This document shows, piece by piece, positions 3,528 through 32,723 of a stretch of DNA of 64,000 bases. Positions within the stretch are counted from its first letter, which is position 1, and each line of letters starts with the position of its first letter. Source of the DNA: Candidatus Woesearchaeota archaeon. GTDB taxonomy: Archaea; Nanobdellota; Nanobdellia; SCGC-AAA011-G17; PNOQ01. A program made the translations under genes and the position numbers. The notes below the pieces were generated by a model that worked only from the letters and a program-made list of their open reading frames with translations, made no database searches and had not been told where the DNA came from. Location: contig JBDRML010000016.1 in the NCBI GenBank assembly GCA_043812195.1, positions 22,093 to 86,092 on the forward strand. The letters run 5' to 3'.

Positions 3528-3849
3528 ATCAATAAAATTATTAATAATAGAAATAATAATCGTTTTCATAATCAGTATTGTATTAAATAACTTCATAGAT
3601 ATGATAAAATTCACAACCTTTTTCATACTCTTATACTTTATCCCAATTCTTCCATGGGTATCAAAAATAAAAATGAACCTTTTAGAAAAAATGATAATAA
3701 TCAACACAATAGGTTTAGCTTTAATACCAATAGTATACATAATAATAGGATCTTTCACAAAACTATCAACAATCTTATATATTTTAGGAGCAGCAGCAAT
3801 ATTTATAGTTGGGATATTAAAAAATAGAAAAGAAAATGAAAAACATTAG
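3520..3849 (+). CDS. small 3-4 TM membrane protein, GtrA-like (putative lipid-linked sugar translocation helper)
   Basis: 109 aa, entirely hydrophobic helices; start overlaps the upstream gene end and its end overlaps the GT2 start. Confidence 0.35.
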   Translation: MNKSIKLLIIEIIIVFIISIVLNNFIDMIKFTTFFILLYFIPILPWVSKIKMNLLEKMIIINTIGLALIPIVYIIIGSFTKLSTILYILGAAAIFIVGILKNRKENEKH

Positions 3850-5264: not shown

Positions 5265-5297
5265 TTTTAAATAACCAGCTTAAATAATCAACATATT

Positions 5298-10870: not shown

Positions 10871-12025
10871 ATGAATATTTGTTTGATAAACCCTTCTTTC
10901 TTTCCAGTTAGAGGGGGAGGAGAACAATTAACATATGACGTTGCAAAGGAATTATCAAATTCAAACAAAGTAGTAATCGCAACAGAACAGTTACCAAACA
11001 CAAAACCTATAGAAATAATAAACAACATAAAGGTATACAGAGCAAAAACTTCAAAAATTCCATTCTTAAGATTATTTTTAAATCAAATATATTTCTACAA
11101 AATGTTGCTAAAAATAATCGATAAAGAAAAAATAAATTTGCTTCATATGTTTCACCTTTTCAATTTGGGAGGTGCGGCAGTTTTAGCCAAAAGAAAGAAA
11201 AAATTAAAACTAATAACTAGTCTAATTGGATGGGACACATATGATCCAATAAAACCTGTTCCAAAATACGCATTTCCATACATGGCATGGGTAATGAACA
11301 ACTCAGACACTGTATTAACTAGCTCTAAACACTTATTAAAATCTGCAAGAAAACAAGGTGCAAGAAAACAAATTCCAATAATCTCACATGGAACAAATTT
11401 GCATAGAATAAAGCAAAAAACAATAGATATAAAAAAAAAATATAACATAAAAAAAGATGAAAAAATTGTTTTCTCTCTTCAAAGACTTCACAAAAGAAAA
11501 GGTTTAGAATATTTAATTCTTGCAGCCAAAAAAGTTCTGGCAAACAAACCAAATATAAAATTCATAATCGGAGGAAAGGGTCCTGAACTAAATAATTTAA
11601 AAGTACTTGCCAAAAGACTAAGACTAGAAAAAAATATTATATTCGCTGGATTCATACCAGACGAAGAATTAAACAATTACTATCAAACTGCAGATCTCTT
11701 CTCATTGCCAAGTCTTTACGAAGGGTTTGGAATAGTTTATGTGGATGCTCTAATCAATGGATTACCAATAGCAACAACAAAATGTGGCGGTTCAGAAGAA
11801 ATGGTAAACAAATCAAATGGAATTTTAGTAAAACCAAAAAGTAGCGAACAATTAGCCAATGCAATCTTAGAAGTATTAAACAAAACATGGAATAAAAAAG
11901 AAATCAAGAAAAATGCTGAAAAATATAAATGGGAAAATATAATAAAAAAATACGAAGAAATTTATGAAAAACTATCTTTTTCTGTATCTAATAACCCAAA
12001 ACAACACATTCTTAATCCAAGCTAA
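10871..12025 (+). CDS. GT4 family glycosyltransferase
   Basis: Start moved to in-frame ATG at 10871 (MNICLINPSFFPVRGGGEQ), just after the gmd stop; C-terminal EGFGIVYVDALINGLPIATTKCGG GT4 signature. Confidence 0.8.
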   Translation: MNICLINPSFFPVRGGGEQLTYDVAKELSNSNKVVIATEQLPNTKPIEIINNIKVYRAKTSKIPFLRLFLNQIYFYKMLLKIIDKEKINLLHMFHLFNLGGAAVLAKRKKKLKLITSLIGWDTYDPIKPVPKYAFPYMAWVMNNSDTVLTSSKHLLKSARKQGARKQIPIISHGTNLHRIKQKTIDIKKKYNIKKDEKIVFSLQRLHKRKGLEYLILAAKKVLANKPNIKFIIGGKGPELNNLKVLAKRLRLEKNIIFAGFIPDEELNNYYQTADLFSLPSLYEGFGIVYVDALINGLPIATTKCGGSEEMVNKSNGILVKPKSSEQLANAILEVLNKTWNKKEIKKNAEKYKWENIIKKYEEIYEKLSFSVSNNPKQHILNPS

Positions 12026-12619
12026 ATTAAACAAAACTGCAAACAACAACAACAAAACCACTAATTGATTAAAAATAATCAAAACAGATATAACTAAATT
12101 CTGTATTGCAACATCTACTTCAATTGGTTTCTGATCTTTTGGTTTTGAATCTTCAACATTAAATTTAACTTTAGTAAATAATGCACTATGTCTCCAAAAC
12201 AAGGTGCTTATAATAGCCAAAATAGATAAAACCATAACAAAAAGAGAGGGTTCATTAATATAAATCACAACAGAAATTGCTATAAGAATTATCAATTCCC
12301 TTATTCTATCTAATATTCCATCAAGCCATGCTCCAAATTGAGAAGCTTTTCCTTTAAGTCTAGCAAGTTCTCCATCAACCAAATCAAAAACCCAAGAAAA
12401 CCAATAAACTATTCCTGCAAATACATAATTCCCATTTAATAAGAGAAAAGCAGAAAAGACACCAATTAAAAAACTGAGAACCGTCACAAAATTTGGAGAA
12501 ATAAATCTAAGCTTATAAAAAAGCACAGTAAAGGGATATGAAAACAACCTACTAAACTCGAACAAATAAGATTCCTTAAAAGATTTTCTTCTCCTTCTCC
12601 ATAAAGATTGCATTCTCAA
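11972..12619 (-). CDS. CDP-alcohol phosphatidyltransferase family membrane protein
   Basis: DLVDGELARLKGKASQFGAWLDGILDRIRE matches D-G-x2-A-R-x8-G-x3-D-x3-D. Confidence 0.7.
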   Translation of the reverse strand: MRMQSLWRRRRKSFKESYLFEFSRLFSYPFTVLFYKLRFISPNFVTVLSFLIGVFSAFLLLNGNYVFAGIVYWFSWVFDLVDGELARLKGKASQFGAWLDGILDRIRELIILIAISVVIYINEPSLFVMVLSILAIISTLFWRHSALFTKVKFNVEDSKPKDQKPIEVDVAIQNLVISVLIIFNQLVVLLLLFAVLFNLAWIKNVLFWVIRYRKR

Positions 12620-12709
12620 AAACTACAAAACCTCGTATATAAAGTTTATTAAAATTAATTTAGAATCCACAAAGCTTAAGAATAGTATAACATTCCAAAT
12701 CATGTTTAA

Positions 12710-13471
12710 ATGAATTTAAAAGAGAGATACAATAAAATAAAAGAGCACTCATTCAGCAGAGCCAGAAAATACAAAGGATTTGACAAAATCTACGATACAT
12801 TTATGAGAGTTATAACATTTATACCAGTATTCATTTTATCCTTTTTTCCTATAACAGGTAACGCTGTATCAATATTAGCCATTTTAGGTAATTTTCTAGC
12901 ATTCTATTTATTTATAACTCAACAATTTATTTTAGGTATAATAATCATTTTTGCTACTGAAGTATTAGATTACATGGATGGAACTGTAGCAAGGATAAGA
13001 AATGAAAAAAATCCAATAATGGGTAGCTTTTTAGGAAGGTTATATCATGTAGTTAGTTTTGGGATAATTTTTATCGGTATTTGTATAGGAATTGGTATTT
13101 GGGAGATGGGTATAGTATTAGGGATTAGTTATTATATCAGAGTATATATGATAGAATTAAGAAATAGTCTATTAAACATAGTCCACAAAGATATTCAAAA
13201 ACCAGAAGAAACAAAAAAACAAAACAAATTATATAAATTTATCAAAAATCTTATAGTATTTCCAATAAGTGATGGAAAGGTTATTATTCTAATAATTTTA
13301 ATTAGCATAATATTGGGCATTTTAAAAGAAGTTATGATATTTTATGCAATTCATTCAGTAATTTTAGCTTTAGCAGTATTTGTAATAACATATAGACAAT
13401 TAATAGCAAAAAAGAAGGAACCTACAGAAAATAGTAACATAAACATTAAAAAAGAAGAAGAGGTAAATTAA
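12710..13471 (+). CDS. CDP-alcohol phosphatidyltransferase family membrane protein (second copy)
   Basis: EVLDYMDGTVARIRNEKNPIMGSFLGRLYH; multi-TM. Confidence 0.6.
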   Translation: MNLKERYNKIKEHSFSRARKYKGFDKIYDTFMRVITFIPVFILSFFPITGNAVSILAILGNFLAFYLFITQQFILGIIIIFATEVLDYMDGTVARIRNEKNPIMGSFLGRLYHVVSFGIIFIGICIGIGIWEMGIVLGISYYIRVYMIELRNSLLNIVHKDIQKPEETKKQNKLYKFIKNLIVFPISDGKVIILIILISIILGILKEVMIFYAIHSVILALAVFVITYRQLIAKKKEPTENSNINIKKEEEVN

Positions 13472-13506
13472 AAAATCGTTTCAAAAAACAAAGGAGGAAA
13501 TAAAAA

Positions 13507-13941
13507 ATGAAAATAGTTTATTCATATTATGTATTAGATTTGGTACATAAAGGACACATTCTTCAAATGAGAAATTCTAAAAACTTTGCAGGTGAAGATG
13601 GAAAACTAGTTGTTGGGATTTTAACAGATGAAGCCGCAATGGAAAAAAAACCAAAACCAATTATGCCATTTGACGAGAGGGTAATTCTCGCTAAAGCCAT
13701 AAAATATGCAGATGTAGTTATTCCGCAAGAAACTTATTCTCCAATAGATAATATAAGAAGAATAAAACCAGATATTTTAATGGAATCAGTAAGCCACAAT
13801 GAAAAAGATATAAAAGAAGCGATTGAAGTAATGAAAGAATGGGGTGGTAAAGTCATAATAACTCCAAATTACCCACAACAATCTTCAACAAATTTAAAAA
13901 AAGAATTAAGAAGAACTAACGCTAAAAGGGAGGAAATATAA
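13507..13941 (+). CDS. small cytidylyltransferase, TagD / glycerol-3-phosphate (or ethanolamine-phosphate) cytidylyltransferase-like
   Basis: 144 aa with HxGH motif (VHKGH) near the N-terminus and the TagD-like size. Confidence 0.6.
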   Translation: MKIVYSYYVLDLVHKGHILQMRNSKNFAGEDGKLVVGILTDEAAMEKKPKPIMPFDERVILAKAIKYADVVIPQETYSPIDNIRRIKPDILMESVSHNEKDIKEAIEVMKEWGGKVIITPNYPQQSSTNLKKELRRTNAKREEI

Positions 13942-14876
13942 TGAAAAAAACAAATTTGGCAATCGGAGCGTTAGTAATACTCTTAGGAATAGTATTAATT
14001 TTTCCAATTATATCTGGAGAAGAAAAATTACAGGAAGAGATAACAGGAGACATTGTTAAAAATACAAATGAAATAAAAGTCTTAAAGATGGGTTTAATCC
14101 CTGCAGATGACGCAGCAGAAATGCTAAGAAATTATGAACCTATTAAAGAATACCTATCTGAAAAATTAGGAATTCCAGTAGAAATTCAAGTAACTTCAGA
14201 TTATACTGCTGCAATTGAAGCAATGAGAGCAAAACATATTGATATGGCATGGTTTGGACCATTCTCATACATAATAGCAGCCAATGTTGCAGACGCAGAA
14301 GCAATAGTTAATGGAGTTAAAGAAGATGGAAAATCTACCTACAAATCAATAATAGTAGTTAATGCAAATAGTGGAATAAAAACATTAGAAGATTTAAAAG
14401 GCAAAAGTTTCGCTTTTGTAGATCCAGCATCAACGTCAGGAAATTTAATACCTAGAAAGATGTTAATTGAAAATGGAATAGATCCAGACAACGATTTTAG
14501 CACTCAATATTATGCTGGCACACACAATGCAGTACAATATGCAATAGCAAACGGAAAAGTAGATGCAGGAGCAGATAGTGATAATTCATATTACAGAATG
14601 TTAGAAGCTGGAGAAATAGATTCTGAAGTTAATATAATCATTTACGAATCTGAACCAATTCCGGGATCTCCAATAGCAGTTAGGGGAGGCTTACCTAAAG
14701 ATTTCAAAAAAGCCATCCAAGATGCTTTAATAGCAATGGAAGAACAGACAATCCATAAAGTAGATGGTTGGGGTGGAATTATAAGGTATCAAGCAGTCAC
14801 AGATAGTGATTACGACATTATTAGAGATACTGCAAAAATATTAGGAATGGATGTAACAAACCCAGACGCTACTTAA
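13941..14876 (+). CDS. phnD: phosphonate/phosphite/phosphate ABC transporter substrate-binding protein (PhnD family)
   Basis: Signal/anchor N-terminus; LKMGLIPADDAAEMLRNYEPIKEYLSEKLGIPVEIQVTSDYTAAIEAMRAKHIDMAWFGPFSY matches PhnD-family binding proteins. Confidence 0.7.
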   Translation: MKKTNLAIGALVILLGIVLIFPIISGEEKLQEEITGDIVKNTNEIKVLKMGLIPADDAAEMLRNYEPIKEYLSEKLGIPVEIQVTSDYTAAIEAMRAKHIDMAWFGPFSYIIAANVADAEAIVNGVKEDGKSTYKSIIVVNANSGIKTLEDLKGKSFAFVDPASTSGNLIPRKMLIENGIDPDNDFSTQYYAGTHNAVQYAIANGKVDAGADSDNSYYRMLEAGEIDSEVNIIIYESEPIPGSPIAVRGGLPKDFKKAIQDALIAMEEQTIHKVDGWGGIIRYQAVTDSDYDIIRDTAKILGMDVTNPDAT

Positions 14877-14929
14877 ATAAATTATTTTTTATTTTTTTAT
14901 AATTCTAAAATAAGAAAAATAAAATAAAA

Positions 14930-15676
14930 ATGATAAAAATAGAAAACCTAACCCATACTTACAAAAATAGAAATGAAGAAGCAATTAAATGTATTAATTT
15001 GCACATCAAAAAAGGAGAAAGTATAGTTATAATAGGATCAAGTGGATCTGGAAAATCAACATTACTAAGATGTATCAATAAATTAATAGAACCTAATTCT
15101 GGAAAAATATTAATAGAAGATGAAGATATTATAAATTGTTCAGCTAAAAAAGCAGAAAAAATACGTGGAAAAATTGCAATGATTTTCCAGAATTTCAACC
15201 TTATAGAAAGAGAGAGTGTTCTTAAAAACGTTTTAAATGGAAGATTAAAATATAATAGCACAATCAAAACTTTATTCGGAAAGTTTTCTAAAGAAGATTA
15301 TAATATTGTAAAAGAAAACATCAAAATAGTTGGATTGGAAGGATACGAAGAAGAAAGAATCAATAATTTAAGTGGCGGACAAAAACAAAGAGTCGCTATA
15401 GCAAGAGCATTGTCACAAAAACCAGATATCATTCTAGCTGATGAACCAGTATCAAACTTAGATCCAATGCTAATGACAGAAATAATGGATTTACTTAAAA
15501 GTATTTGTGATAAAAAAAATATAACACTTATAACAAGTTTGCATTTTCTTGAATTTGCAAAAAGATATGGTACAAGAATAATAGGAATGCGAAACGGGCA
15601 GATTGTTTTTAATGGGACCCCAGAAGAACTTACAGAAAGAGACATAGTAGAAATATACCAAAAAACTCAAAACTAA
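14930..15676 (+). CDS. phnC: ABC transporter ATP-binding protein, phosphonate type (PhnC-like)
   Basis: Walker A GSSGSGKST, ABC signature LSGGQKQRVAIARAL, Walker B ILADEP. Confidence 0.8.
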   Translation: MIKIENLTHTYKNRNEEAIKCINLHIKKGESIVIIGSSGSGKSTLLRCINKLIEPNSGKILIEDEDIINCSAKKAEKIRGKIAMIFQNFNLIERESVLKNVLNGRLKYNSTIKTLFGKFSKEDYNIVKENIKIVGLEGYEEERINNLSGGQKQRVAIARALSQKPDIILADEPVSNLDPMLMTEIMDLLKSICDKKNITLITSLHFLEFAKRYGTRIIGMRNGQIVFNGTPEELTERDIVEIYQKTQN

Positions 15677-15677
15677 C

Positions 15678-16478
15678 TTGCCAAAAATGACTAAACTAAA
15701 ACTCCCAAAAAATAAGTATAAAGGAATTATTATAGGTATATTAATAGTCATAATCTATTACTGGGCCATTACTGGAACTGAAACAAGCCCTATTAATTTT
15801 GTCAAAGGTCTTCCAAATATGGCAGATTTCATCAGTAGAATGTTCCCACCAGACATAACTAACTTAGAAAGATTTCTATTAAAAGCTGTAGAAACTCTAC
15901 AAATGGCTATAGTAGGATCAACATTAGGAGCATTAATAGCACTACCATTATCATTTTTGGCTGCAAGAAATATAATGCACAATAAATTAATATATCATAC
16001 AACAAGAACTATATTTGATGCTTTAAGAGGAATTAACGAAATAGTATGGGGTCTAATTTTTGTTTCAATGGTAGGACTAGGACCATTTCCAGGAGTATTA
16101 GCATTAACAGCGCACGTTACAGGTGCGTTAGGAAGATATTTTTCAGAAGCAATAGAAACAGTAGATCCAGAATCAATAAGAGCTATTGTCTCAACAGGAG
16201 CAAGCAAAATTCAAGTAATAGCTAGAGGAATTTTCCCACAAGTTAAACCACTATTTGCCAATTATTCCTTGTACTATTTAGAAAATAATTTCAGAGCTGC
16301 AACAGTCTTAGGATTGGTAGGAGCAGGAGGAATAGGTATGGAGCTCATCACAAGTATGAGACTATTCAAAAACCAAGAAGTTCTAACTATTCTAATAATA
16401 ATGGTATTAATGGTTATAATGATAGATCGATTAAGTGCATTCGTTAGAAAAAAGATAATTAAAATTGAAAATGTTTAA
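15678..16478 (+). CDS. phnE: ABC transporter permease, phosphonate type (PhnE-like)
   Basis: 266 aa, 6 TM helices; position after the PhnD/PhnC genes. Confidence 0.65.
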   Translation: MPKMTKLKLPKNKYKGIIIGILIVIIYYWAITGTETSPINFVKGLPNMADFISRMFPPDITNLERFLLKAVETLQMAIVGSTLGALIALPLSFLAARNIMHNKLIYHTTRTIFDALRGINEIVWGLIFVSMVGLGPFPGVLALTAHVTGALGRYFSEAIETVDPESIRAIVSTGASKIQVIARGIFPQVKPLFANYSLYYLENNFRAATVLGLVGAGGIGMELITSMRLFKNQEVLTILIIMVLMVIMIDRLSAFVRKKIIKIENV

Positions 16479-16723
16479 CAAAAATTAAATAAGACTTTAT
16501 TGCATAATTGCTTCTTCACTCAATTTACCTTCTTTTAAAGCTTGTACCCTTTCACAAACCTCAAAAATTCTTGACAATCCAATATTCATTGCTTTAACCA
16601 AAGTAGGATTAAATTTAGAAAGAACAGAATCTTCATAATACCTTGATTTAATATCAGCTATTCTTTATCTAAAAAACATTCTCGCACCATTTACATTACA
16701 TGCATAGCCCACTTATAATCTCA

Positions 16724-17386
16724 TTATGCATCAATCTTTGATACAGCCTTATAACTATTCTTAAATGAATAAATAACCATTAAACTTGTTATCAACAAAT
16801 AACCTAAATTTAATACCATCATTAAACCAAGTATTTTACCAATAATTATCATAGGCAAATAACCTTCAAAACTTAAAGCAATTCTTATTACTTCGTTCTG
16901 TTTTCCACCGACTTTCTTACTTTTTTTGTTTGTAGTTTTTAGTAGATTATCTTTGTATCTAAAAGAAATCTGACTAAGCAAATAAAATATTGCAGATGTT
17001 ACACCAACCACTAAATAACCACTTCCAATTCCAACACCTATTAAAAGCGTTATTAAAGATACAATATGAAACATGTGGTCTAAATATGCATATGTCTTAT
17101 TGTTTAAGTTATTTGTTGAGTGTGCTATTGCACCATCTACGCAATCTAAAATATGGCCCAAAATTAAGAACAACATTCCAATCCAAAACTCATTAGATAA
17201 AAAGAAAATTATTGCAGGTATTCTACTTAAGATTGCTAACCAAGTGATTGTATCTGGCTTTATCTTTAACCATTTAAATGAATAATAGAATGGAATTGAA
17301 AGTATTATTAAACAACAATATACTATCTTCCATATTAAAGGATTATTCTTAAACTTCCTTTTTATGGTTACTTCGTATAGTTCCAA
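16724..17386 (-). CDS. CDP-alcohol phosphatidyltransferase-like membrane protein (third, divergent copy)
   Basis: DCVDGAIAHSTNN...GVGIGSG is a D-x2-D-G-x2-A-[RH] variant; multi-TM. Confidence 0.4.
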   Translation of the reverse strand: MELYEVTIKRKFKNNPLIWKIVYCCLIILSIPFYYSFKWLKIKPDTITWLAILSRIPAIIFFLSNEFWIGMLFLILGHILDCVDGAIAHSTNNLNNKTYAYLDHMFHIVSLITLLIGVGIGSGYLVVGVTSAIFYLLSQISFRYKDNLLKTTNKKSKKVGGKQNEVIRIALSFEGYLPMIIIGKILGLMMVLNLGYLLITSLMVIYSFKNSYKAVSKIDA

Positions 17387-19292
17387 GTATCACATCTCCT
17401 GATTTTTTTGAAGAATCAAATAAATTTTCCCTTATGGATAAATTCCTCTTCTTTATGCTTTCTAATATTCTTAAAAAATGTTCAATACTAACATTTCTAA
17501 TATCAACTTCTAATAACTCGTGTTTCCCCAAACATTTTTCTGAAAATCCTTCCGTATCTTTATATTTTATTATTATTATTGGTCTATCTACGTATATTGC
17601 TTCTAACACTATTGATGAAAAAAATGTTATTACTAAATCATATTTTTTTAGAAAATCATATTTATCACCCACATTTTTATCTTCATAAACTTTATTAGAA
17701 ATTTTATTATAGATTTCTTTATTTTCTTCAGATGGATGCATCTTTATATCTAACTCAAAATCTCCCTTCAATTTTTCACTTAATTCTTTTATATAACTCT
17801 CATACTCTTTGATTGTTGATGTTCCTTCTTCCACAAAAGCATTTGTGCATAACAAAACTTTCTTCTTTGGTTTCTTTACAAAACTATATCCCACCAAATG
17901 TAAGTTTTCTTTCTTCGCCCCATTCTTTAATAACATATCTTTTAATAAATGATTATAACACAATACATGGCAATTATCTGGGTATGTATATTCTACATCG
18001 GGAATAAGGAAACCATGTGTCAATCTAAAACAAGGTATATTCATAGACTTACCCGCAATAATCATACACTTTTCAACAAGGTTTCCAAATCCATCTAACA
18101 AAACACATTTACAATCGTACTTTTTTATTATATCCAAACAAATTTTATAATAAATGTTTATTAATCGTATTACTTCTTTTGAATATATAAAATCTTCTGG
18201 AGGAATCTTTGTTTTTTTATATTTAATATTATTCGATTGAAAAATAGAGTCAAAATAATTGTATATCATATCCTCCCTATACCTAATTCTTTTACTTGAT
18301 AACTTATCGAAATAGATTACTTTTTGTGCATGTCCCAAACTTTTTATGTAATTATAAATATCGCCAACTCTTTCTAGTTCATCACCTTTCTTTCTTATTA
18401 ATGGCAGTAAGTATAGTATATCATACTTATTATTATCTTTTATTTTTTTAGACGCAATCAGCTTTGTTATTTGAGAGATATACATTGCTTTTCTATATAT
18501 ATTTCTTTTTTCACCGTATACCCATTTTGGCATTTCACCAACTAATATTTTCTGTTTAAAAAACAATCCAATGTTATAATCGCCGATTTTATAATTCTCA
18601 TCTATACTAAAATTGCCAGATTTTTTATTGATAGATGAACCTTGCATAAGATCTTGCCCCTCCATTATTTTTACTCTTTTTTCTTTTTTCTTTTCAATAA
18701 TTAAATTCATCCATTTTTTTTGGTATTTTATGTTATAATCTTCATAAAATTCAATTACATCAAACCCATTTTCATTAAACATCTCAATAAACTCATCTTT
18801 AACAAATCGCCTTCTAAATCTTTTAGTTACATTTTTATAATCTTCTTTAATAAAATACCCTTCTTCTGATTTTTCATTTATAGTGGTACAAACAAAAATA
18901 CATCCATTCGGCATTAATAATGATTTTAATTTGTTTAATATTATTTTTGTTTCATCTTTTGGAAATAAGTGTATAAAAGCATCTAAAATTATTCCATCAT
19001 ATTTTCTATCAAATTCCTTTTTTAAGAAATCTATAACTTCTAATTTTGCTTCTGGAACATTCTTTTTAGCAAATTTAATCATCTCTTTTGAACAATCAAT
19101 ACCATAGGTTTTAAATCCAAAATTATTTAAAATATGTAAATCAAGACCAACGCCGCAACCAATATCTAAAACTTCTGGTTTCTTGAATCTTTTTGCTAAT
19201 ATTTTTTTAAAGGGTAATAATACTTTTGTTTGATACAAAATATTATTTTTATTTCTTTCATTATATTCTTTAGCAACAGAATCATAGTTCAT
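17349..19292 (-). CDS. fusion protein: N-terminal class I SAM methyltransferase + C-terminal CDP-glycerol glycerophosphotransferase (TagB/TagF, Glyphos_transf)-like domain
   Basis: N-terminal VLDIGCGVGLDL motif I. C-terminal KKVLLCTNAFVEEG...DIKMHPSEEN...YDLVITFFSSIVLEAIYVDRPIII resembles TagF (HP motif, DYSS-like motif). Confidence 0.55.
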   Translation of the reverse strand: MNYDSVAKEYNERNKNNILYQTKVLLPFKKILAKRFKKPEVLDIGCGVGLDLHILNNFGFKTYGIDCSKEMIKFAKKNVPEAKLEVIDFLKKEFDRKYDGIILDAFIHLFPKDETKIILNKLKSLLMPNGCIFVCTTINEKSEEGYFIKEDYKNVTKRFRRRFVKDEFIEMFNENGFDVIEFYEDYNIKYQKKWMNLIIEKKKEKRVKIMEGQDLMQGSSINKKSGNFSIDENYKIGDYNIGLFFKQKILVGEMPKWVYGEKRNIYRKAMYISQITKLIASKKIKDNNKYDILYLLPLIRKKGDELERVGDIYNYIKSLGHAQKVIYFDKLSSKRIRYREDMIYNYFDSIFQSNNIKYKKTKIPPEDFIYSKEVIRLINIYYKICLDIIKKYDCKCVLLDGFGNLVEKCMIIAGKSMNIPCFRLTHGFLIPDVEYTYPDNCHVLCYNHLLKDMLLKNGAKKENLHLVGYSFVKKPKKKVLLCTNAFVEEGTSTIKEYESYIKELSEKLKGDFELDIKMHPSEENKEIYNKISNKVYEDKNVGDKYDFLKKYDLVITFFSSIVLEAIYVDRPIIIIKYKDTEGFSEKCLGKHELLEVDIRNVSIEHFLRILESIKKRNLSIRENLFDSSKKSGDVILGTIRSNHKKEV

Positions 19293-19626: not shown

Positions 19627-21120
19627 ATGACTGATTATTCTAAAACTTTGATAAAAGGAACAAGTGTTATTTTCATTGCAACAATAAGCACAAGTCTAAT
19701 TGGTTATTTTCTAAAATTATTATTAGCAAAAAACTTAACTATAACGGAATTTGGATTAGTTTATTCAATAATAGCATTATTCGGAGTTTTTCTAATATTG
19801 CCTGGAATAGGATCAGGCAAAGCATTAGTTAGATTTATAACAGAATACAAGACCAAAAATAAATTAAAAGAAATTAAAACAACCATACTAACAAGTTTCT
19901 TAATCAACATGTGTTTATCTCTAACAATAGGCCTTATATTAATTATATTTTCAGAACCAATAGCTCTAAATTATTTACATGATATAACCAAATCATCTTA
20001 CATAAGATTATATGCTATAGCATTTATTCTTACCCCTACAATAAGTATATTTAAATCTATTTTTGCAGGATTCAAAAAAAGTAAATATTATTCAATAATA
20101 GACTTATCAAAAATGTTAACAATCCTAATTTTCGCTTATATCTTCCTAAAATTAAACTTGGGTGTAACAGGGGTATTTTTAGCCTACATTTTAGTATATA
20201 TTCTACCAATAATATTCTATTTCCCATTACTAATAAAAAAAGTATTTCCAACTTTCTTAAAGGTAAAAGCAGGAATCAAATCACAAAAAGCAAAAAGATT
20301 AATAAAATTTGGGATACCCCTCACAATAGCAAGTACAGCAGGTATGATATTTGGATACATGGACACAGTGATAATCACTTTCTTTAGATCTCTAGAAGAA
20401 GTAGCACTATACAATGTAGGATTGCCAACTATAAGAATTGTATGGAACTTTGAAAGGGCTCTAACTGTAATACTTTTTCCAATAGCAGTAGAATTATGGC
20501 TCCAAAAAGATAAAACCAGATTCAGAAACGGAATAAAAAATCTCTACAAATACATTTTAATTATAATAATACCATTTACTATGGTCTTATTCATATTTCC
20601 TGAATTAATCCTCAAAGTATTATTTGGCCAAGCATTTGTGGGGGCTGCTAGTGTAGTGAGAATTCTTGCAATCACATCGCTAATTATAGTTTTAGCAAGA
20701 ATAAATATAGCCATAATAACCAGCATAGGAAAACCAAGCATTATAACTAAAGTAATGGTAATAGGCGCGCTGATAAATATTATAATAAACCTAATTTTAA
20801 TCCCGATAATAGGTATAAATGGTGCTGCGATATCCACAGCAGCCGCCTTTTCATTTATATTGATTTACACACATAATAATCTAAAAAAATTAGCACAAAT
20901 AAATTTCCCAGTAGGAAAAATAATCAAAATATTATTAATCAGCACAATTATAACTATTACAGCTTACATTTTAAAAGAAATTATTCAAATAAATATCTAT
21001 TTAGAATCTATAATTATAATATTAATAGGAATGATAATCTACACAACTCTGATTTTTGTATTCAAAGTCTTAACTCCAAAAGAAGTTAAAAATCTGCTTA
21101 ACAAGCTTAAAAATAAATAA
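19627..21120 (+). CDS. Wzx-type oligosaccharide/polysaccharide flippase (MOP superfamily)
   Basis: 497 aa, ~14 TM helices; Wzx-like N-terminus. Confidence 0.7.
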   Translation: MTDYSKTLIKGTSVIFIATISTSLIGYFLKLLLAKNLTITEFGLVYSIIALFGVFLILPGIGSGKALVRFITEYKTKNKLKEIKTTILTSFLINMCLSLTIGLILIIFSEPIALNYLHDITKSSYIRLYAIAFILTPTISIFKSIFAGFKKSKYYSIIDLSKMLTILIFAYIFLKLNLGVTGVFLAYILVYILPIIFYFPLLIKKVFPTFLKVKAGIKSQKAKRLIKFGIPLTIASTAGMIFGYMDTVIITFFRSLEEVALYNVGLPTIRIVWNFERALTVILFPIAVELWLQKDKTRFRNGIKNLYKYILIIIIPFTMVLFIFPELILKVLFGQAFVGAASVVRILAITSLIIVLARINIAIITSIGKPSIITKVMVIGALINIIINLILIPIIGINGAAISTAAAFSFILIYTHNNLKKLAQINFPVGKIIKILLISTIITITAYILKEIIQINIYLESIIIILIGMIIYTTLIFVFKVLTPKEVKNLLNKLKNK

Positions 21121-21146: not shown

Positions 21147-21920
21147 TTAATATTCAACTTTGAAAGTATTTTCTAAAGCTGTGGGCCCATGAGAAAACAC
21201 ACGAGTCCCTTCAGCCATTGTTTCGAGTATTATTCTATCCATAAATTCTCTTTGTGAAGGTAAGGTTCTACCAGTTTCACCTAATTTAGGTTTATAAAAA
21301 TAATTACCACCATAATAACTAGAATCACTAGAAACCTCATTACTAAATTCAACACCATACAAATGAATTGAAGATGCACCCATGACATGAGCGACTTGTA
21401 GAGCCATACATGCACTTGTACCCCCAACATTAATCGCCTTTTGATGTCTTCTAGAAACTGGAACAGGATTCTTAGATCCAGCAATATAATGCATTAATAA
21501 ATGTGGCTCAGAAGGGCTAGGTAATTGTAAAAAAAGATTATTGATATGTTCATCTCTGCTAGAAACCCATCTTAATCCTAATTCAGTAGTTTTAACTAAA
21601 CTAGGTTTCTCATCCATATATTTTTCATATTCATTAATAAATTTATTCCTAATCTTTTCATCAGGATAAAATTTGGGAGAGTAAATAGCTGAATGTGGTT
21701 TAATTATACATTGCACATCCTCATCCAAATCCAAAAACCAACTTCTAGTATGTGCAGCTTGGTCTCCAGAAAGAAAAATATCTCTTCCATGAAGTAAATA
21801 ACCCGCACCATTAACACCAATAACAATGTCTTCCCCTCTATTAAAAATCATAACAGAAGGAGCAGAACCTAAAACAGCAATTTCAGTACCATAATAAATA
21901 TTTCTTACTTTATCAAGCAT
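21147..21920 (-). CDS. GT42-like sialyltransferase-fold protein (Cst-II / DUF115 / Maf-like); candidate nonulosonic-acid transferase
   Basis: IAVLGSAPS (compare GNGPSL) and INVGGTSACMALQVAHVMGASSIHLYGVEF (compare Cst-II ITSGVYMCAVAIALGYKEIYLSGIDF). Visibly more GC-rich than its neighbours. Confidence 0.45.
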   Translation of the reverse strand: MLDKVRNIYYGTEIAVLGSAPSVMIFNRGEDIVIGVNGAGYLLHGRDIFLSGDQAAHTRSWFLDLDEDVQCIIKPHSAIYSPKFYPDEKIRNKFINEYEKYMDEKPSLVKTTELGLRWVSSRDEHINNLFLQLPSPSEPHLLMHYIAGSKNPVPVSRRHQKAINVGGTSACMALQVAHVMGASSIHLYGVEFSNEVSSDSSYYGGNYFYKPKLGETGRTLPSQREFMDRIILETMAEGTRVFSHGPTALENTFKVEY

Positions 21921-22947
21921 TTTTTAACGTTTTAATCAGTTTTTTCTCTAATCCTAAAGCAATTTCTGTTCTATTATTGAAAAAATCATATCTTCTACTA
22001 AAATAATCTCTCTCAGCATCTGAAGACGTAGGTAAATATCCTTCACCCCACGTAACTATTAAACTATTTAACCCAACATCAGCAAGCATTAAGGGTAAGC
22101 TCTCAATCTGATCTCTAATAGAAGGATCAAATTTCCTATATTCAGAAAAACATTCTTTTAATTTATCCCAATCAACCCTATCATCAAGAGCAATATCTTT
22201 TGTTTCTTTATCAAAACAATATAAATCAGAGGTATGTATCGCATCAGTCCCTCTAAAATCCATTCTAACTAAATCATAATCAACAACAGCAACCAATTTG
22301 CCATTGTTTATCAACGCGCACCCTAAATTAAAGTCGCCATGAATCAATTGCTTAGGTTTACCTAATTTAGGTAATCTTTCTTCAACTGTACTTATCATCT
22401 CTCTAACTCTACTAACCTGAGAAAGAACATATTCATCCGTATCATTACATGCACTTCTGGGCAAATGTGGTTCTAATTCTTCAAGCAATCTTCTATGGGA
22501 TTTAAAAAATCTTGGCAAAGCTTCATATTCTTCTAAATTCTCAAATTGGCCCAATGCTAAATTAAATCTAGCTAAACCATGAAATGCTAAATTTATTTCT
22601 GATTGAACAGATTCTCTTGGATGTCTCCCTTCAACAAATGTCATCAAGGAATAAAGGTTATTTTCAAAAGTCGTTAAGTTTTCTCCATTTATACTCTTCA
22701 AAATCTTTGGTGTAGGCACTCCACAAGCATAAACAAAATCATTTAACCTTAGTTGAAATTCTGCTATTTGGGGTGTAAAATCATAAGAATATTTCTTAAC
22801 AACATACTTAGATGCATTAGAATCAGTCAAAAAAACGACTTGGTTTTTGTCTCCTTTTTCAGGAAATTCTTGATTTGGGGTAAAATCTAAATCATATGCA
22901 CGTGATAAAAAATCAATCTCTTCCGGTGTAAATTTTTCCCTTAACAT
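21913..22947 (-). CDS. phosphotransferase of the aminoglycoside-phosphotransferase / choline-kinase family
   Basis: Brenner motif HGDFNLGCALINNGK and VVDYD (D-x-E/D) motif. Confidence 0.6.
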   Translation of the reverse strand: MLREKFTPEEIDFLSRAYDLDFTPNQEFPEKGDKNQVVFLTDSNASKYVVKKYSYDFTPQIAEFQLRLNDFVYACGVPTPKILKSINGENLTTFENNLYSLMTFVEGRHPRESVQSEINLAFHGLARFNLALGQFENLEEYEALPRFFKSHRRLLEELEPHLPRSACNDTDEYVLSQVSRVREMISTVEERLPKLGKPKQLIHGDFNLGCALINNGKLVAVVDYDLVRMDFRGTDAIHTSDLYCFDKETKDIALDDRVDWDKLKECFSEYRKFDPSIRDQIESLPLMLADVGLNSLIVTWGEGYLPTSSDAERDYFSRRYDFFNNRTEIALGLEKKLIKTLKNA

Positions 22948-23045: not shown

Positions 23046-23795
23046 ATGCAAAACAATAAAGTATTAGCTATAATCCCTGCAAGAGGTGGTTCTAAAGGAA
23101 TTCCAAGAAAAAACATAAAACCATTTCTAGGCAAACCATTAATAACATACACAATTAAATTAGCATTATCTTGTCCAGAAATAGACAAAGTAATTGTTTC
23201 TACAGATGACGAAGAAATAGCTCAAATTTCTAAAGAAGCTGGAGCAGAAATACCTTTCATAAGACCTGAAGAATTGGCAAGAGATGATACACCAGCCATT
23301 CCTGTATTCAGACATGTTATAAAATTCTTAGAAGAAAAAAACGAACATTATGAAAATATATTAATTCTAGAACCAACAGCACCACTAAGAACAAAAGAAC
23401 ACATTTTACAAACAATAAAAACACTAAAAGAAGAAGATGTTGAAACAGTAGTAAGCGTCAGAAAATTTGATATAGATTTCACAGATGTACTTGAAAAAAA
23501 TGAAAACAATTATCTAACACCTTTTTTAGGAACTAAAACAACAATCAGAAGACAAGATACAAAAGATGTCTACATAATGGATGCAGCAATCTACGGAGTC
23601 AAAAGAGATGCATTAATGGATGAATCATTAATCATGCTTAACCCATACAAAGGAAGAAATCCACAATTAAAAACAAAAATGGTATTATCAAATCCAAATC
23701 TATCTTGTGAGATTGATAATGAAGAAGATTGGGAATATGCTGAATTTTTATACAACAAATACAAAAAAGAAATAGAAAGAGAAAAAAATGATTAA
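23046..23795 (+). CDS. neuA: CMP-nonulosonic acid synthetase (acylneuraminate cytidylyltransferase family)
   Basis: LAIIPARGGSKGIPRKNIKPFLGKPLITYTI N-terminal motif of CMP-NeuAc/CMP-Kdo synthetases. Confidence 0.8.
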   Translation: MQNNKVLAIIPARGGSKGIPRKNIKPFLGKPLITYTIKLALSCPEIDKVIVSTDDEEIAQISKEAGAEIPFIRPEELARDDTPAIPVFRHVIKFLEEKNEHYENILILEPTAPLRTKEHILQTIKTLKEEDVETVVSVRKFDIDFTDVLEKNENNYLTPFLGTKTTIRRQDTKDVYIMDAAIYGVKRDALMDESLIMLNPYKGRNPQLKTKMVLSNPNLSCEIDNEEDWEYAEFLYNKYKKEIEREKND

Positions 23796-25808: not shown

Positions 25809-25809
25809 T

Positions 25810-28775: not shown

Positions 28776-28777
28776 TT

Positions 28778-31080: not shown

Positions 31081-31089
31081 AAATAATAC

Positions 31090-32602: not shown

Positions 32603-32723
32603 AATTTAAAGAAATTTACAACCGTTTTTAAAGCTTATGGTGGCATTTTAAAGTGTATAAAAACCGAACATATAGTCTTTAATTACACATTATTTATAAA
32701 CAAAACCACTTTTCCAAAAATGA

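What the first reader, a model, noticed from the sequence alone, without database searches (positions are those of the whole stretch)
11972..19292. Teichoic-acid-like CDP-alcohol polymer module in an archaeon, embedded with a phosphonate-type ABC transporter
Within 7 kb there is a TagD-like HxGH cytidylyltransferase (13507), a TagB/TagF-like CDP-glycerol glycerophosphotransferase domain fused to a SAM methyltransferase (17349), three CDP-alcohol phosphatidyltransferase-type membrane proteins (11972, 12710, 16724) and a PhnD/PhnC/PhnE transporter (13941-16478). TagD plus TagF is the bacterial poly(glycerol/ribitol-phosphate) logic and is unusual in archaea. The Phn-type importer next to a cytidylyltransferase suggests that an imported phospho- or phosphono-compound (glycerol-3-P, phosphocholine, phosphoethanolamine or 2-aminoethylphosphonate) is CMP/CDP-activated and polymerised or transferred onto the glycan or a lipid. 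This would be a phosphodiester/phosphonate-decorated surface glycopolymer.
Basis: partly seen in the sequence, partly recalled or inferred. Interest (0 to 1): 0.7.

Follow-up and report, generated by a model that had tools for sequence, protein, structure and literature searches.

The report
Archaeal phosphonate scavenging and surface-decoration cassette
A tiny symbiotic-type archaeon carries a conserved gene set that most likely imports a small phosphonate (or similar phospho-compound), tags it with CMP and attaches it to its membrane or surface sugars; it is not a teichoic-acid pathway, and the import-fed version has not been described.

Summary
The genes are real and at the stated coordinates, in a Woesearchaeota (DPANN) MAG. 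The teichoic-acid reading (TagD plus TagF) is not supported.

- **Cytidylyltransferase (144 aa).** It belongs to a very conserved clade. Its closest solved relative is the Fom1 2-hydroxyethylphosphonate cytidylyltransferase, not TagD.
- **Gene context of that clade.** In about 85% of informative loci the gene sits beside an organophosphate importer, either a GlpT-like MFS or PhnDCE. Otherwise it sits beside PEP mutase and phosphonopyruvate decarboxylase.
- **Sister locus L085.** It keeps CDP-OH transferase, cytidylyltransferase, PhnDCE, GT-B and Wzx (31-82% identity) and adds a complete 2-aminoethylphosphonate (AEP) pathway.
- **PhnD.** It is closest to phosphite binders but has Ser where they have the capping Tyr.
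- **CDP-OH proteins.** Only one of the three keeps the catalytic motif. It resembles AF2299 and DIPP synthase.
- **"TagF" domain.** It is an unassigned GT-B enzyme, equally close to polysialyltransferase and epimerase families. It may instead transfer the nonulosonic acid made next door.

Best reading: import, CMP activation, then transfer of an AEP-like head group. No step has been tested biochemically. This is a new variant of known phosphonyl-tailoring logic.

The parts
11972..12619 (-). CDPOH_1: a canonical CDP-alcohol phosphotransferase, and the likely transferase for the CMP-activated head group. The full motif DLVDGELAR-x8-GAWLD-GILD lies at 12305-12385.
   Evidence: Pfam PF01066, 65 bits. 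The motif is complete. Best solved relatives are AF2299 (55.7 bits) and IPCT/DIPPS (45.8 bits). A 65%-identical orthologue sits in the same divergent position in L085.
12710..13471 (+). CDPOH_2: a degenerate CDP-OH_P_transf paralogue and the first gene of the cytidylyltransferase-PhnDCE operon. Its motif DYMDGTVAR-x9-GSFLG-RLYH has lost the third and fourth Asp.
   Evidence: Pfam 22.5 bits against a gathering score of 22. Motif. No homologue other than itself among 5.8 billion proteins. 27% identical to CDPOH_3.
13507..13941 (+). A 144-aa HxGH cytidylyltransferase of the Fom1-like clade, the predicted organophosph(on)ate:CTP cytidylyltransferase. HKGH lies at 13546-13557.
   Evidence: PF01467, 46 bits. 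TagD model TIGR01518 scores 52.6 against a cut-off of 165. PDB best hit is the Fom1 cytidylyltransferase domain 5x3d, at 63.5 bits for the single sequence and 70.7 for the profile. More than 1200 homologues at 63-71% identity. Tree.
13941..14876 (+). PhnD-family substrate-binding protein. The STS-H head-binding motif is kept. Ser replaces the phosphite-specific capping Tyr (IPGSPI, 14658-14675). Its start overlaps the cytidylyltransferase stop codon (TAATG).
   Evidence: TIGR03431, 273 bits against 261. PDB hits: PtxB 180 bits, E. coli PhnD 88, GpxB 59. Alignments. Start/stop overlap. 74-78% identical to L006, L074 and L085.
14930..15676 (+). PhnC, the ABC ATPase.
   Evidence: TIGR02315, 318 bits against 266.
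15678..16478 (+). PhnE, the permease.
   Evidence: TIGR01097, 298 bits against 217.
16724..17386 (-). CDPOH_3: a degenerate CDP-OH_P_transf paralogue. Its motif DCVDGAIAH...AYLDHMFH has Arg changed to His and the fourth Asp changed to His. It is co-oriented with the methyltransferase-GT-B gene and overlaps it by 38 nt.
   Evidence: Pfam 35 bits. Motif.
18681..19292 (-). N-terminal class-I SAM methyltransferase domain (aa 1-204) of the 647-aa fusion protein.
   Evidence: Methyltransf_23/31/25, 48-51 bits. PDB hits are generic methyltransferases.
17352..18680 (-). C-terminal GT-B domain (aa 205-647) of an unassigned family related to TagF, polysialyltransferase and UDP-GlcNAc 2-epimerase. Conserved THGF lies at 18009-18020, KMHP at 17733-17744 and FFSS at 17613-17624. 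The donor is probably CMP-linked, either CMP-phosphonate or CMP-nonulosonate.
   Evidence: Glyphos_transf, 29 bits, partial. 221 homologues. Family Pfam spectrum. AF2 model with pLDDT 82. GT-B fold. hhalign against cytidylyltransferase-linked TagF-like proteins gives 99.4% probability.
19627..21120 (+). Wzx-type (MOP) flippase that travels with the cassette.
   Evidence: Polysacc_synt, 95 bits. 67% identical to the Wzx in sister locus L085.

Best explanation
The region is a scavenge, activate and transfer cassette for a small organophosph(on)ate head group.

1. **Import (inferred).** PhnDCE imports the compound from outside the cell. The best guess is 2-aminoethylphosphonate (AEP) or a close derivative.
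2. **Activation (inferred).** The translationally coupled 144-aa HxGH cytidylyltransferase condenses it with CTP. The product is a CMP-phosphonate, a CDP-alcohol analogue.
3. **Transfer (inferred).** The canonical CDP-alcohol phosphotransferase CDPOH_1 (AF2299/DIPPS-like) moves the phosphono group onto a membrane-bound alcohol and releases CMP. The acceptor would be a lipid or a lipid-linked glycan.
4. **Neighbouring genes.** The methyltransferase-GT-B fusion and Wzx belong to the same surface-glycan island. The GT-B domain uses either the same CMP donor (TagF-like) or the CMP-nonulosonic acid made by the adjacent pathway. The methyltransferase tailors the product.
5. **Degenerate paralogues.** CDPOH_2 and CDPOH_3 are probably non-catalytic partners or have altered chemistry.

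What is shown: domain identities, motif states, synteny and co-occurrence. What is inferred: the substrate, the direction of each reaction and the acceptor.
For: **The cytidylyltransferase clade and its neighbours**
- The closest solved relative is the Fom1 2-hydroxyethylphosphonate cytidylyltransferase: 63.5 bits for the single sequence and 70.7 bits for the family profile. Human ethanolamine-phosphate cytidylyltransferase scores 61.3 and TagD 49.5.
- Standalone homologues form one tight clade with 74% mean column identity. PEP-mutase-fused cytidylyltransferase domains plus Fom1 form the sister clade.
- Of 51 informative genome loci, 34 have a GlpT/PgtP-like organophosphate MFS directly downstream and 3 have PhnDCE. 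Another 8 have a canonical CDP-OH transferase directly downstream, several with PEP mutase plus phosphonopyruvate decarboxylase within 10 kb. Four of the remaining 6 have the transporter just upstream or slightly further away.
- These contexts are intermixed in the tree, which suggests one substrate class supplied either by synthesis or by import.

**Sister locus L085**
- It keeps CDPOH_1 (65% identity), the cytidylyltransferase (64%), PhnD/C/E (74/73/82%), the GT-B (31%) and Wzx (67%).
- It adds PEP mutase (TIGR02320, 397 bits against a cut-off of 319), phosphonopyruvate decarboxylase (TIGR03297, 512 against 312) and an AEP aminotransferase (TIGR03301, 171 bits on a 168-aa fragment).

**The PhnD subfamily is dedicated to this cassette**
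- Of 26 relatives at 70-80% identity, about 19 have a nucleotidyltransferase directly upstream. In 14 it is the HxGH cytidylyltransferase, and in 5-6 it is a LicC/PntC-like enzyme.
- PhnD keeps the phosph(on)ate head-binding residues but has Ser where phosphite binders have the essential capping Tyr. This opens the pocket for a larger R group (PMC5700983, PMC12718374).
- The cytidylyltransferase stop codon overlaps the PhnD start.

**Transfer step and precedents**
- CDPOH_1 has the full catalytic motif and is closest to AF2299 and DIPPS, enzymes fused to cytidylyltransferase(-like) domains; DIPPS uses a soluble CDP-alcohol.
- Predicted phosphonolipid clusters with two cytidylyltransferases (one fused to Ppm) plus CDP-OH genes are already described (PMC8942020).
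- E. coli PhnD and the GlpT-like AepP both handle AEP: PhnD binds it and AepP is required for its uptake (PMC8316502).
Against: - No PEP mutase, decarboxylase or AEP aminotransferase lies in the 64-kb window. The phosphonate link therefore rests on sister loci.
- L085 has both biosynthesis and the importer, so import may serve recycling rather than primary supply.
- The residues that bind the AEP amine in E. coli PhnD (E177, D205) are not conserved here. They align to Asn and Ser.
- The margin of Fom1 over ethanolamine-phosphate cytidylyltransferase and TagD in profile scores is modest. Phosphate esters such as phosphoethanolamine, phosphocholine or glycerol phosphate remain possible.
- A close GT-B homologue (L088) sits in a nonulosonic-acid cluster with no cytidylyltransferase or PhnDCE within 8 kb. 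The GT-B may therefore be unrelated to the phosphonate.
- Nothing has been tested biochemically for any member of this cytidylyltransferase clade or this PhnD subfamily.
Confidence: 0.55

Rival explanations
1. Lic-like decoration with a phosphate ester. PhnDCE imports phosphoethanolamine or phosphocholine. The cytidylyltransferase makes CDP-ethanolamine or CDP-choline. The methyltransferase N-methylates the head group, and CDP-OH or GT-B enzymes attach it to lipid or glycan. The mechanism is the same as in the best explanation, but the head group has a P-O-C link instead of P-C.
For: - The cytidylyltransferase family profile scores 61.3 bits on human ethanolamine-phosphate cytidylyltransferase, close to the 70.7 bits for Fom1.
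- Sister cassettes carry a second nucleotidyltransferase whose best solved relative is LicC, the phosphocholine cytidylyltransferase (65 bits).
- The methyltransferase next to the cytidylyltransferase in bacterial loci hits phosphoethanolamine N-methyltransferases (about 39 bits).
- LicD genes occur in 13 of 46 large loci.
- A PhnT-family binding protein that takes phosphate monoesters is known (GpxB, PMC12718374).
Against: - PEP mutase, decarboxylase and AEP aminotransferase co-localise with the cassette in three unrelated lineages: Smithella, Thermoplasmata L028 and L085. This points to C-P compounds.
- The window's own methyltransferase domain is only generically methyltransferase-like.
Confidence: 0.17
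2. Imported glycerol-1/3-phosphate is converted to CDP-glycerol by a TagD-like enzyme. A TagF-like enzyme then polymerises or transfers it, giving a teichoic-acid-like polymer.
For: - The C-terminal domain hits Glyphos_transf above the gathering score.
- It aligns with cytidylyltransferase-linked TagF-like proteins at 99.4% probability, including the HG and HP motifs.
- Bacterial sister loci carry up to four Glyphos_transf genes and a GlpT-like MFS.
[quoted passage not shown] It also lacks the Tyr cap, with Thr at that position (PMC12718374). The window has Ser there.
Against: - The TagD equivalog model scores 52.6 against a cut-off of 165.4, and TagD ranks fourth among solved relatives.
- The GpxB head motif is S-N-S and its tail residue is Arg223. 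The window has S-T-S and no Arg at the E. coli E177 position, which the paper equates with GpxB Arg223; GpxB itself was not aligned. GpxB scores only 59 bits.
- Cells make glycerol phosphate themselves, so a dedicated importer fused to the pathway is hard to explain.
- The GT-B family matches Epimerase_2 and polysialyltransferase more often than Glyphos_transf.
- The PEP mutase association is left unexplained.
Confidence: 0.1
3. The adjacency is incidental. PhnDCE serves phosphorus nutrition by taking up phosphite, phosphate or phosphonate. The cytidylyltransferase, CDP-OH proteins and GT-B belong to unrelated lipid or glycan pathways. For example, CDPOH_1 could be a normal archaeal phospholipid head-group synthase, and the GT-B could be the nonulosonic-acid transferase.
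For: - The best solved relatives of PhnD are phosphite binders (180 bits).
- The GT-B homologue in L088 lies in a nonulosonic-acid cluster without the cassette.
- CDPOH_1 also hits archaetidylinositol-phosphate synthase (74 bits).
Against: - The cytidylyltransferase-transporter adjacency holds in about 41-45 of 51 informative loci across many phyla, with two unrelated transporter types.
- About 19 of 26 close PhnD relatives have a nucleotidyltransferase directly upstream.
- The cytidylyltransferase and PhnD genes overlap at stop and start.
- The capping Tyr needed for phosphite specificity is missing.
- The Pfam/NCBIfam scans of the window's large ORFs (most ORFs of at least 120 aa) showed no ptxD, C-P lyase, phnW/X or phnA.
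Confidence: 0.06
4. The cassette makes a soluble phosphodiester compatible solute by DIP-synthase logic, not a surface structure. The cytidylyltransferase makes a CDP-alcohol, and CDPOH_1 condenses it with a second soluble alcohol.
For: - The best solved relatives of CDPOH_1 are AF2299 and IPCT/DIPPS.
- Sister cassettes have an IPCT-like NTP_transf_3 gene (58 bits to the IPCT domain).
Against: - The cassette is embedded in a glycan island with GT4 and GT2 enzymes.
- A Wzx flippase is conserved with the cassette (67% identity in L085).
- Bacterial versions carry LicD and TagF-type surface transferases.
- Nothing indicates thermophily or osmoadaptation.
Confidence: 0.04

Closest known systems
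Phosphonyl-tailoring (Pnt) pathways and Group-1 'CDP-OH' phosphonolipid clusters: Ppm, Ppd, AEP transaminase, two cytidylyltransferases (one fused to Ppm) and CDP-alcohol phosphatidyltransferase (Rice et al. 2019, PMC6697681; Li & Horsman 2022, PMC8942020)
   Same: Both use CMP activation of a small phosphonate by a PF01467-type cytidylyltransferase, followed by a CDP-OH_P_transf membrane enzyme. Sister locus L085 and the Smithella loci have exactly this gene set around the same cytidylyltransferase clade.
   Different: The window has no Ppm, Ppd or transaminase. A PhnDCE importer is translationally coupled to the cytidylyltransferase, so supply would be by uptake. The host is a DPANN archaeon. 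The cytidylyltransferase is the standalone clade, not the Ppm-fused or LicC-like PntC that has been characterised.
Fom1 N-terminal cytidylyltransferase domain (PDB 5x3d), the 2-hydroxyethylphosphonate cytidylyltransferase of fosfomycin biosynthesis
   Same: It is the best solved relative (63.5-70.7 bits). It shares the HxGH and ISST motifs and the roughly 135-aa fold.
   Different: It is only about 35% identical and falls in the sister clade. It is fused to PEP mutase and belongs to an antibiotic pathway, not a surface pathway.
LicABCD phosphocholine salvage and decoration (H. influenzae, S. pneumoniae)
   Same: Both import a head-group precursor, CMP/CDP-activate it and transfer it to surface glycans. 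Sister cassettes carry LicC-like and LicD genes.
   Different: Lic imports choline through LicB and needs the kinase LicA. Here the imported molecule already carries phosphorus, because the importer is a PhnDCE or GlpT-like type, and no kinase lies in the operon. The window has no LicC or LicD.
TagD/TagF wall teichoic acid synthesis
   Same: Both have an HxGH cytidylyltransferase superfamily enzyme, a GT-B enzyme with HG and HP motifs, and a CMP leaving group.
   Different: The cytidylyltransferase fails the TagD equivalog model. The GT-B is not a clean Glyphos_transf member. No TagA, TagB or TagO is present, and there is no evidence for a glycerol or ribitol phosphate donor.
PtxB, PhnD and GpxB substrate-binding proteins of the PhnT ABC family
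   Same: The fold is the same, and the STS-His-Tyr residues that bind the phosph(on)ate head are kept.
   Different: The window has Ser at the Tyr208 (PtxB) / Asp205 (E. coli PhnD) position, which the GpxB paper equates with GpxB Thr247 (GpxB itself was not aligned here), and a DSDN loop at the E177 / Arg223 position. This is a distinct, uncharacterised subfamily found next to nucleotidyltransferases.
AF2299 and IPCT/DIPPS archaeal CDP-alcohol phosphotransferases
   Same: They are the best solved relatives of CDPOH_1. The catalytic motif is complete, and both are partnered with a cytidylyltransferase.
   Different: There the cytidylyltransferase is fused and of a different fold class. DIPPS makes a soluble osmolyte from CDP-inositol.

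Membership tests
TagD (glycerol-3-phosphate cytidylyltransferase, TIGR01518) | Score at or above the equivalog cut-off of the TagD model | tested here: not met
   52.6 bits against a cut-off of 165.4. TagD ranks fourth or fifth among solved relatives.
TagD (glycerol-3-phosphate cytidylyltransferase, TIGR01518) | HxGH nucleotide-binding motif and the C-terminal RTxGISTT-type motif of the cytidylyltransferase superfamily | tested here: met
   HKGH at aa 14-17. QSSTN at aa 125-129, with the SST invariant across the family. This is a superfamily feature and is not specific to TagD.
Fom1-like / Ppm-associated phosphonate cytidylyltransferases (PF01467 type) | Closest characterised relative acts on a phosphonate, and the gene is associated with PEP mutase | tested here: inconclusive
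   Fom1 is the best PDB hit, and the clade is sister to Ppm-fused cytidylyltransferases. Ppm and Ppd lie within 10 kb in 6 of 46 large genome loci and in L085. The window itself has no Ppm. Activity was not tested.
TagB/TagF (Glyphos_transf, PF04464) | Profile match over the catalytic GT-B domain | tested here: inconclusive
TagB/TagF (Glyphos_transf, PF04464) | Conserved catalytic His of the (W)HG motif and the second His (HP) that binds the donor phosphate | tested here: met
   THGF at aa 425-428 and KMHP at aa 517-520 align with the TagF-like HG and LH(P) columns. Both are more than 90% conserved in the family. Equating these columns with the TagF catalytic residues rests on my own knowledge of TagF, not on a test here.
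CDP-alcohol phosphatidyltransferase (PF01066) | Signature D-x2-D-G-x2-A-R-x8-G-x3-D-x3-D | tested here: met
   Applies to CDPOH_1 only: DLVDGELAR-LKGKASQF-GAWLD-GILD, 65 bits.
CDP-alcohol phosphatidyltransferase (PF01066) | The same signature in the other two proteins (12710-13471 and 16724-17386) | tested here: not met
   CDPOH_2 has lost the third and fourth Asp. CDPOH_3 has Arg changed to His and the fourth Asp changed to His. The fold-level match remains, at 22.5 and 35 bits.
PhnCDE phosphonate ABC transporter | Scores above the NCBIfam equivalog cut-offs for all three subunits | tested here: met
   PhnD 273 against 261, PhnC 318 against 266, PhnE 298 against 217.
Phosphite-specific PtxB / picocyanobacterial PhnD1 | Capping Tyr (Te_PtxB Y208) that gives the P-H...pi contact and excludes larger groups | tested here: not met
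   Ser in IPGSPI aligns with the Tyr of PQYPW (PMC5700983).
2-AEP-binding PhnD of E. coli | Glu177 and Asp205 that hold the amino group | tested here: not met
   They align to Asn and Ser, although Asp residues flank the first position in the DSDN loop. This lowers the claim that the protein is E. coli-type PhnD. It does not rule out AEP binding.
Phosphonyl-tailoring / phosphonolipid gene cluster | PEP mutase with the EDKxxxxxNS motif in the neighbourhood | tested here: not met
   No PEP mutase or Ppd homologue appears in any ORF of the 64-kb window. Both are present in syntenic L085. The rest of the 139.8-kb contig and the MAG could not be read.

The most novel reading that the evidence does not exclude
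DPANN archaea and CPR bacteria have reduced genomes. They may use a dedicated PhnDCE subfamily (Ser or Ala in place of the Tyr cap), coupled to a Fom1-like cytidylyltransferase, to scavenge environmental or host-derived phosphonates. They would then build these directly into their own lipids or surface glycans. This would be an anabolic phosphonate salvage route, the first import-fed phosphonyl-tailoring pathway. It would be a previously unrecognised sink in the phosphonate cycle and a possible surface signature of episymbionts.
Probability: 0.35. Interest if true: 0.75.

Novelty: new variant of a known kind. Interest (0 to 1): 0.6.

Why it matters
- **Phosphonate cycling.** Phosphonates make up a large share of dissolved organic phosphorus. 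Known prokaryotic uptake systems feed catabolism. A cassette that couples uptake to CMP activation and membrane transfer would mean some microbes reuse phosphonates intact as building blocks.
- **Unassigned gene families.** It would give a function to a very conserved, uncharacterised cytidylyltransferase clade with more than 1200 members across many phyla. It would do the same for a PhnD subfamily that current annotation reads as phosphorus nutrition.
- **DPANN and CPR biology.** These organisms depend on hosts for lipids and metabolites. The cassette would point to how they remodel their surfaces.
- **Annotation caveat.** Labels such as "TagD/TagF", "PEP phosphomutase" or "ADP-heptose synthase" on these genes are misleading.

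Tried and rejected
**Searches that led nowhere**
- An exact-protein lookup of the 647-aa fusion found nothing on record.
- The lookup of the cytidylyltransferase returned only short contigs from the same organism. The rest of the 139.8-kb contig could not be read.
- Word-indexed homology searches found essentially only the query itself for the 647-aa protein (plus two weak methyltransferase hits) and only the query for CDPOH_2. The exhaustive HMMER search was needed to find the GT-B family.
- The window has no tRNA and no Rfam match.

**Tests that did not discriminate**

**Readings considered and rejected**
- A phosphite-uptake reading of PhnD was considered because PtxB is the best hit. It was rejected because the capping Tyr is missing, no ptxD was seen in the domain scans of the window's large ORFs, and the gene is tied to nucleotidyltransferases.
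- I tested whether the 231-aa protein upstream of the cytidylyltransferase in L085 is the counterpart of CDPOH_2. It is not. It carries an HD motif instead and has no PDB relative.
- The window's methyltransferase domain could not be tied to phosphoethanolamine N-methyltransferases. It has only a generic 26-bit hit and is 26% identical to the bacterial cytidylyltransferase-linked methyltransferase.
- Composition shows no island boundary. GC is about 0.28-0.30 throughout.

Full report
**1. What is in the sequence**

The window is about 29% G+C. It is archaeal, with aRF1 at 62246-63346 and PCNA at 55955-56728. The exact 144-aa and 647-aa proteins are recorded from a Candidatus Woesearchaeota MAG contig of 139,779 bp.

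Profile searches confirm the domain calls:
- Three CDP-OH_P_transf proteins, at 65, 22.5 and 35 bits.
- A 144-aa CTP_transf_like protein with an HKGH motif.
- PhnD, PhnC and PhnE, all above the NCBIfam equivalog cut-offs.
- A 647-aa fusion of a class-I SAM methyltransferase with a C-terminal domain. That domain hits Glyphos_transf at 29 bits, above the gathering score, but over only 91 of 367 profile positions.

The genes form three transcription units:
- CDPOH_1 alone on the minus strand.
- CDPOH_2, cytidylyltransferase, PhnD, PhnC and PhnE on the plus strand. The cytidylyltransferase stop and the PhnD start overlap as TAATG, and GGAGG-like sites precede both.
- The methyltransferase-GT-B fusion followed by CDPOH_3 on the minus strand, overlapping by 38 nt.

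A Wzx flippase follows. The surroundings are a glycan island with GT4, GT2 and GDP-mannose dehydratase genes and a full nonulosonic-acid pathway.

**2. The cytidylyltransferase is not TagD**

On the TagD equivalog model it scores 52.6 bits against a cut-off of 165.4. Its best solved relative is the N-terminal domain of Fom1 (5x3d), which cytidylylates 2-hydroxyethylphosphonate (PMC6697681).

| Solved relative | Single sequence | Family profile |
|---|---|---|
| Fom1 cytidylyltransferase domain | 63.5 bits | 70.7 bits |
| 5x9q, putative cytidylyltransferase | 44.6 bits | 61.7 bits |
| Human ethanolamine-phosphate cytidylyltransferase | 43.4 bits | 61.3 bits |
| TagD | about 37 bits | 49.5 bits |

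The protein has more than 1200 homologues at 63-71% identity, about 140 aa long. They occur in many bacterial phyla and in Thermoplasmata and Woesearchaeota. Mean column identity is 74%. Some sources name them [quoted passage not shown], and others "ADP-heptose synthase".

**3. Gene context of the cytidylyltransferase clade**

I fetched 75 genome loci and scanned their ORFs with phmmer, using proteins from the window and from three first loci as queries.

Of the 51 loci with enough downstream sequence:
- 34 have an MFS transporter directly downstream. It is of the organophosphate:phosphate antiporter type, PgtP/UhpC/GlpT-like.
- 3 have PhnDCE.
- 8 have a small canonical CDP-OH transferase directly downstream, several with a cytidylyltransferase-PEP-mutase fusion and phosphonopyruvate decarboxylase within 1-8 kb. 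These are the Smithella/Syntrophaceae loci. L046 reads radical SAM, cytidylyltransferase/Ppm, Ppd, hypothetical, cytidylyltransferase, CDP-OH, SDR, methyltransferase and two KAS III genes.
- 6 fit none of these patterns, but 4 of them have the transporter just upstream or slightly further away.

In a neighbour-joining tree all standalone cytidylyltransferases form one tight clade in which these contexts are intermixed. Ppm-fused domains plus Fom1 form the sister clade.

The simplest reading is one substrate class, either made by the Ppm pathway or imported. Both transporter types have precedents for 2-AEP: E. coli PhnD binds it and the GlpT-like AepP is required for its uptake (PMC8316502). 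A cluster type with two cytidylyltransferases (one fused to Ppm) plus CDP-OH genes is already catalogued as a predicted phosphonolipid pathway (PMC8942020).

**4. The sister locus**

An exhaustive HMMER search with the C-terminal domain found 221 relatives. The best is P0124, at 36% identity. It lies in a locus (L085/86/87) that reads as follows:
- CDPOH_1 orthologue on the minus strand
- an HD-motif protein
- cytidylyltransferase
- PhnD, PhnC and PhnE
- B12 radical SAM enzyme
- GT-B
- two GFO genes
- Wzx
- Ppd
- cytidylyltransferase/Ppm fusion
- sulfatase-family protein
- class-V aminotransferase

Identities to the window are 65, 64, 74, 73, 82, 31 and 67% for CDPOH_1, cytidylyltransferase, PhnD, PhnC, PhnE, GT-B and Wzx.

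Three genes of that locus score as follows:
- PEP mutase: 397 bits against a cut-off of 319.
- Phosphonopyruvate decarboxylase: 512 against 312.
- AEP aminotransferase model: 171 bits on a 168-aa fragment.

The same cassette therefore sits inside a complete AEP biosynthetic cluster. The window has none of these three genes in its 64 kb.

**5. PhnD**

Its best solved relatives are phosphite binders: PtxB at 180 bits, against 88 for E. coli PhnD and 59 for the glycerol-phosphate binder GpxB. The head-binding residues are kept, namely the hinge Tyr, STS and His.

The capping Tyr is Ser here, in IPGSPI. That Tyr gives phosphite specificity and blocks larger groups (PMC5700983). E. coli PhnD has Asp205 at this position, and GpxB, per its paper, has Thr247 (PMC12718374). 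The position of E. coli Glu177 is Asn inside a DSDN loop.

The Ser and DSDN features are shared with the Patescibacteria (L006) and Woesearchaeota (L074) copies. A second PhnD type next to the cytidylyltransferase in L035, L050 and L065 has Ala at the cap.

A metagenome scan with PhnD returned 26 relatives at 70-80% identity, mostly on low-GC contigs:
- The upstream neighbour is the HxGH cytidylyltransferase in 14.
- It is a LicC/PntC-like nucleotidyltransferase in 5-6. The best PDB hits for that enzyme are LicC at 65 bits and PntC at 38 bits.
- That second nucleotidyltransferase often follows PhnE.
- B12 radical SAM, HD and CDP-OH genes recur.

This PhnDCE subfamily is thus dedicated to a nucleotidyl-activation cassette and not to phosphorus catabolism.

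**6. The transferases**

*CDP-OH proteins.* CDPOH_1 has the full D-x2-DG-x2-AR-x8-G-x3-D-x3-D motif. CDPOH_2 has lost the last two Asp. CDPOH_3 has Arg changed to His and the last Asp changed to His. All bacterial partner CDP-OH proteins are canonical.

CDPOH_1 is closest to AF2299 and IPCT/DIPPS. Both are archaeal enzymes fused to cytidylyltransferase(-like) domains, and DIPPS uses a soluble CDP-alcohol. CDPOH_2 has no detectable homologue other than itself.

*The GT-B domain.*
- The AF2 model has pLDDT 82.
- Of 51 family members, 44 hit Epimerase_2, 21 hit polysialyltransferase, 14 hit Glyphos_transf and 6 hit Capsule_synth.
- A profile-profile comparison with 16 TagF-like partners of the cytidylyltransferase from bacterial loci gives 99.4% probability. 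It aligns the family's HG, K-x-HP and S-S motifs.
- By my own knowledge of these families (not tested here), TagF, polysialyltransferase and KpsC/S all release CMP, so a CMP-linked donor is likely.
- A second close homologue, P0125 in L088, sits next to a sulfotransferase inside a nonulosonic-acid cluster. That cluster is 62-76% identical to the window's and has no cytidylyltransferase or PhnDCE within 8 kb.

The GT-B may therefore transfer the nonulosonic acid rather than the phosph(on)o group. I leave this open, at roughly even odds.

**7. Model and verdict**

The best-supported mechanism has three steps:
- Import of a small organophosph(on)ate, most likely AEP-like.
- CMP activation.
- Transfer by CDPOH_1, and possibly by the GT-B domain, to a membrane or glycan acceptor.

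The methyltransferase would tailor the product, and Wzx would export it.

Its teichoic-acid headline is not.

The main rivals differ in the head group (phosphoethanolamine or phosphocholine, or glycerol phosphate) or deny the coupling altogether. The conserved adjacency argues strongly against the last. No member of this cytidylyltransferase clade or PhnD subfamily has been characterised, and I found no paper describing an import-fed version. A Cloacimonadota survey merely notes PhnCDE and "fom1" together (PMC12590816).

I rate this a new variant of a known kind, of moderate to high interest.

Noticed in passing
window 23046-35238: A complete nonulosonic-acid pathway lies here. It contains a CMP-sugar synthetase (CTP_transf_3), a class-III aminotransferase, two SDRs, a FemAB-like acyltransferase, two DegT aminotransferases, a NeuC-like epimerase, NeuB, a GNAT and a CBS-fused dehydratase. 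It is syntenic with metagenome locus L088 at 62-76% identity.
   Followed up: partly
window 21147-22947 (-): This is a two-gene operon of a weak MptE/Maf-like protein and an APH-family kinase (47 bits to type-II homoserine kinase and CotS). The first is a possible nonulosonic-acid transferase. The kinase could phosphorylate a sugar or an amino alcohol. Its relation to the cassette is unknown.
   Followed up: no
L085 2862-3557; L006 9180-9962; homologues in L091, L094, L096, L098, L105, L106: An HD-motif protein (GGLHDIGR) with no Pfam or PDB match sits directly upstream of the cytidylyltransferase in sister cassettes. In the window that position is taken by the degenerate CDP-OH paralogue. Its role is unexplained. 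It could be a phosphohydrolase or a PhnZ-like oxygenase.
   Followed up: partly
L085 6623-7987; L006 6163-7629; L091, L103, L105, L112, L113: B12-binding radical SAM enzymes recur in the PhnDCE-type cassettes. Among their weak relatives are PhpK-type P-methyltransferases (129 bits). This hints at C- or P-methylation of the CMP-activated phosphonate, as Fom3 does. The window has a SAM methyltransferase domain instead.
   Followed up: partly
window 13507-13941 and alignment A4: The cytidylyltransferase family is unusually conserved. Mean column identity is 74% and 51 columns are invariant across bacterial phyla and archaea. PhnD and PhnE are 74-82% identical between the Woesearchaeota and Patescibacteria copies. 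This suggests frequent horizontal transfer of the cassette.
   Followed up: partly
L004 8430-9637; L013, L026, L036, L056, L065: Cloacimonadota and Armatimonadota loci carry two further cytidylyltransferase paralogues in tandem, one of 136 aa and one of about 266 aa with a C-terminal extension. They also carry up to four tandem Glyphos_transf genes, LicD and a 310-aa CDP-OH transferase. This is a much larger bacterial version of the system.
   Followed up: no
window 37584-39593, 42478-44685, 50610-54221: Three large ORFs of 669, 735 and 1203 aa have no NCBIfam match at all. They may be DPANN surface or host-interaction proteins.
   Followed up: no
window 1102-1530, 45040-45990, 49493-49990: HEPN, Fic/DOC and PIN_2 domain proteins are scattered around the glycan island. 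They look like toxin-antitoxin or defence modules.
   Followed up: no
window 3836-6248: A GT2, a methyltransferase and an LPG_synthase_TM membrane protein form a co-oriented trio at the 5' edge of the glycan island. A PgaC/IcaA-like GT2 lies at 59794-61014.
   Followed up: no
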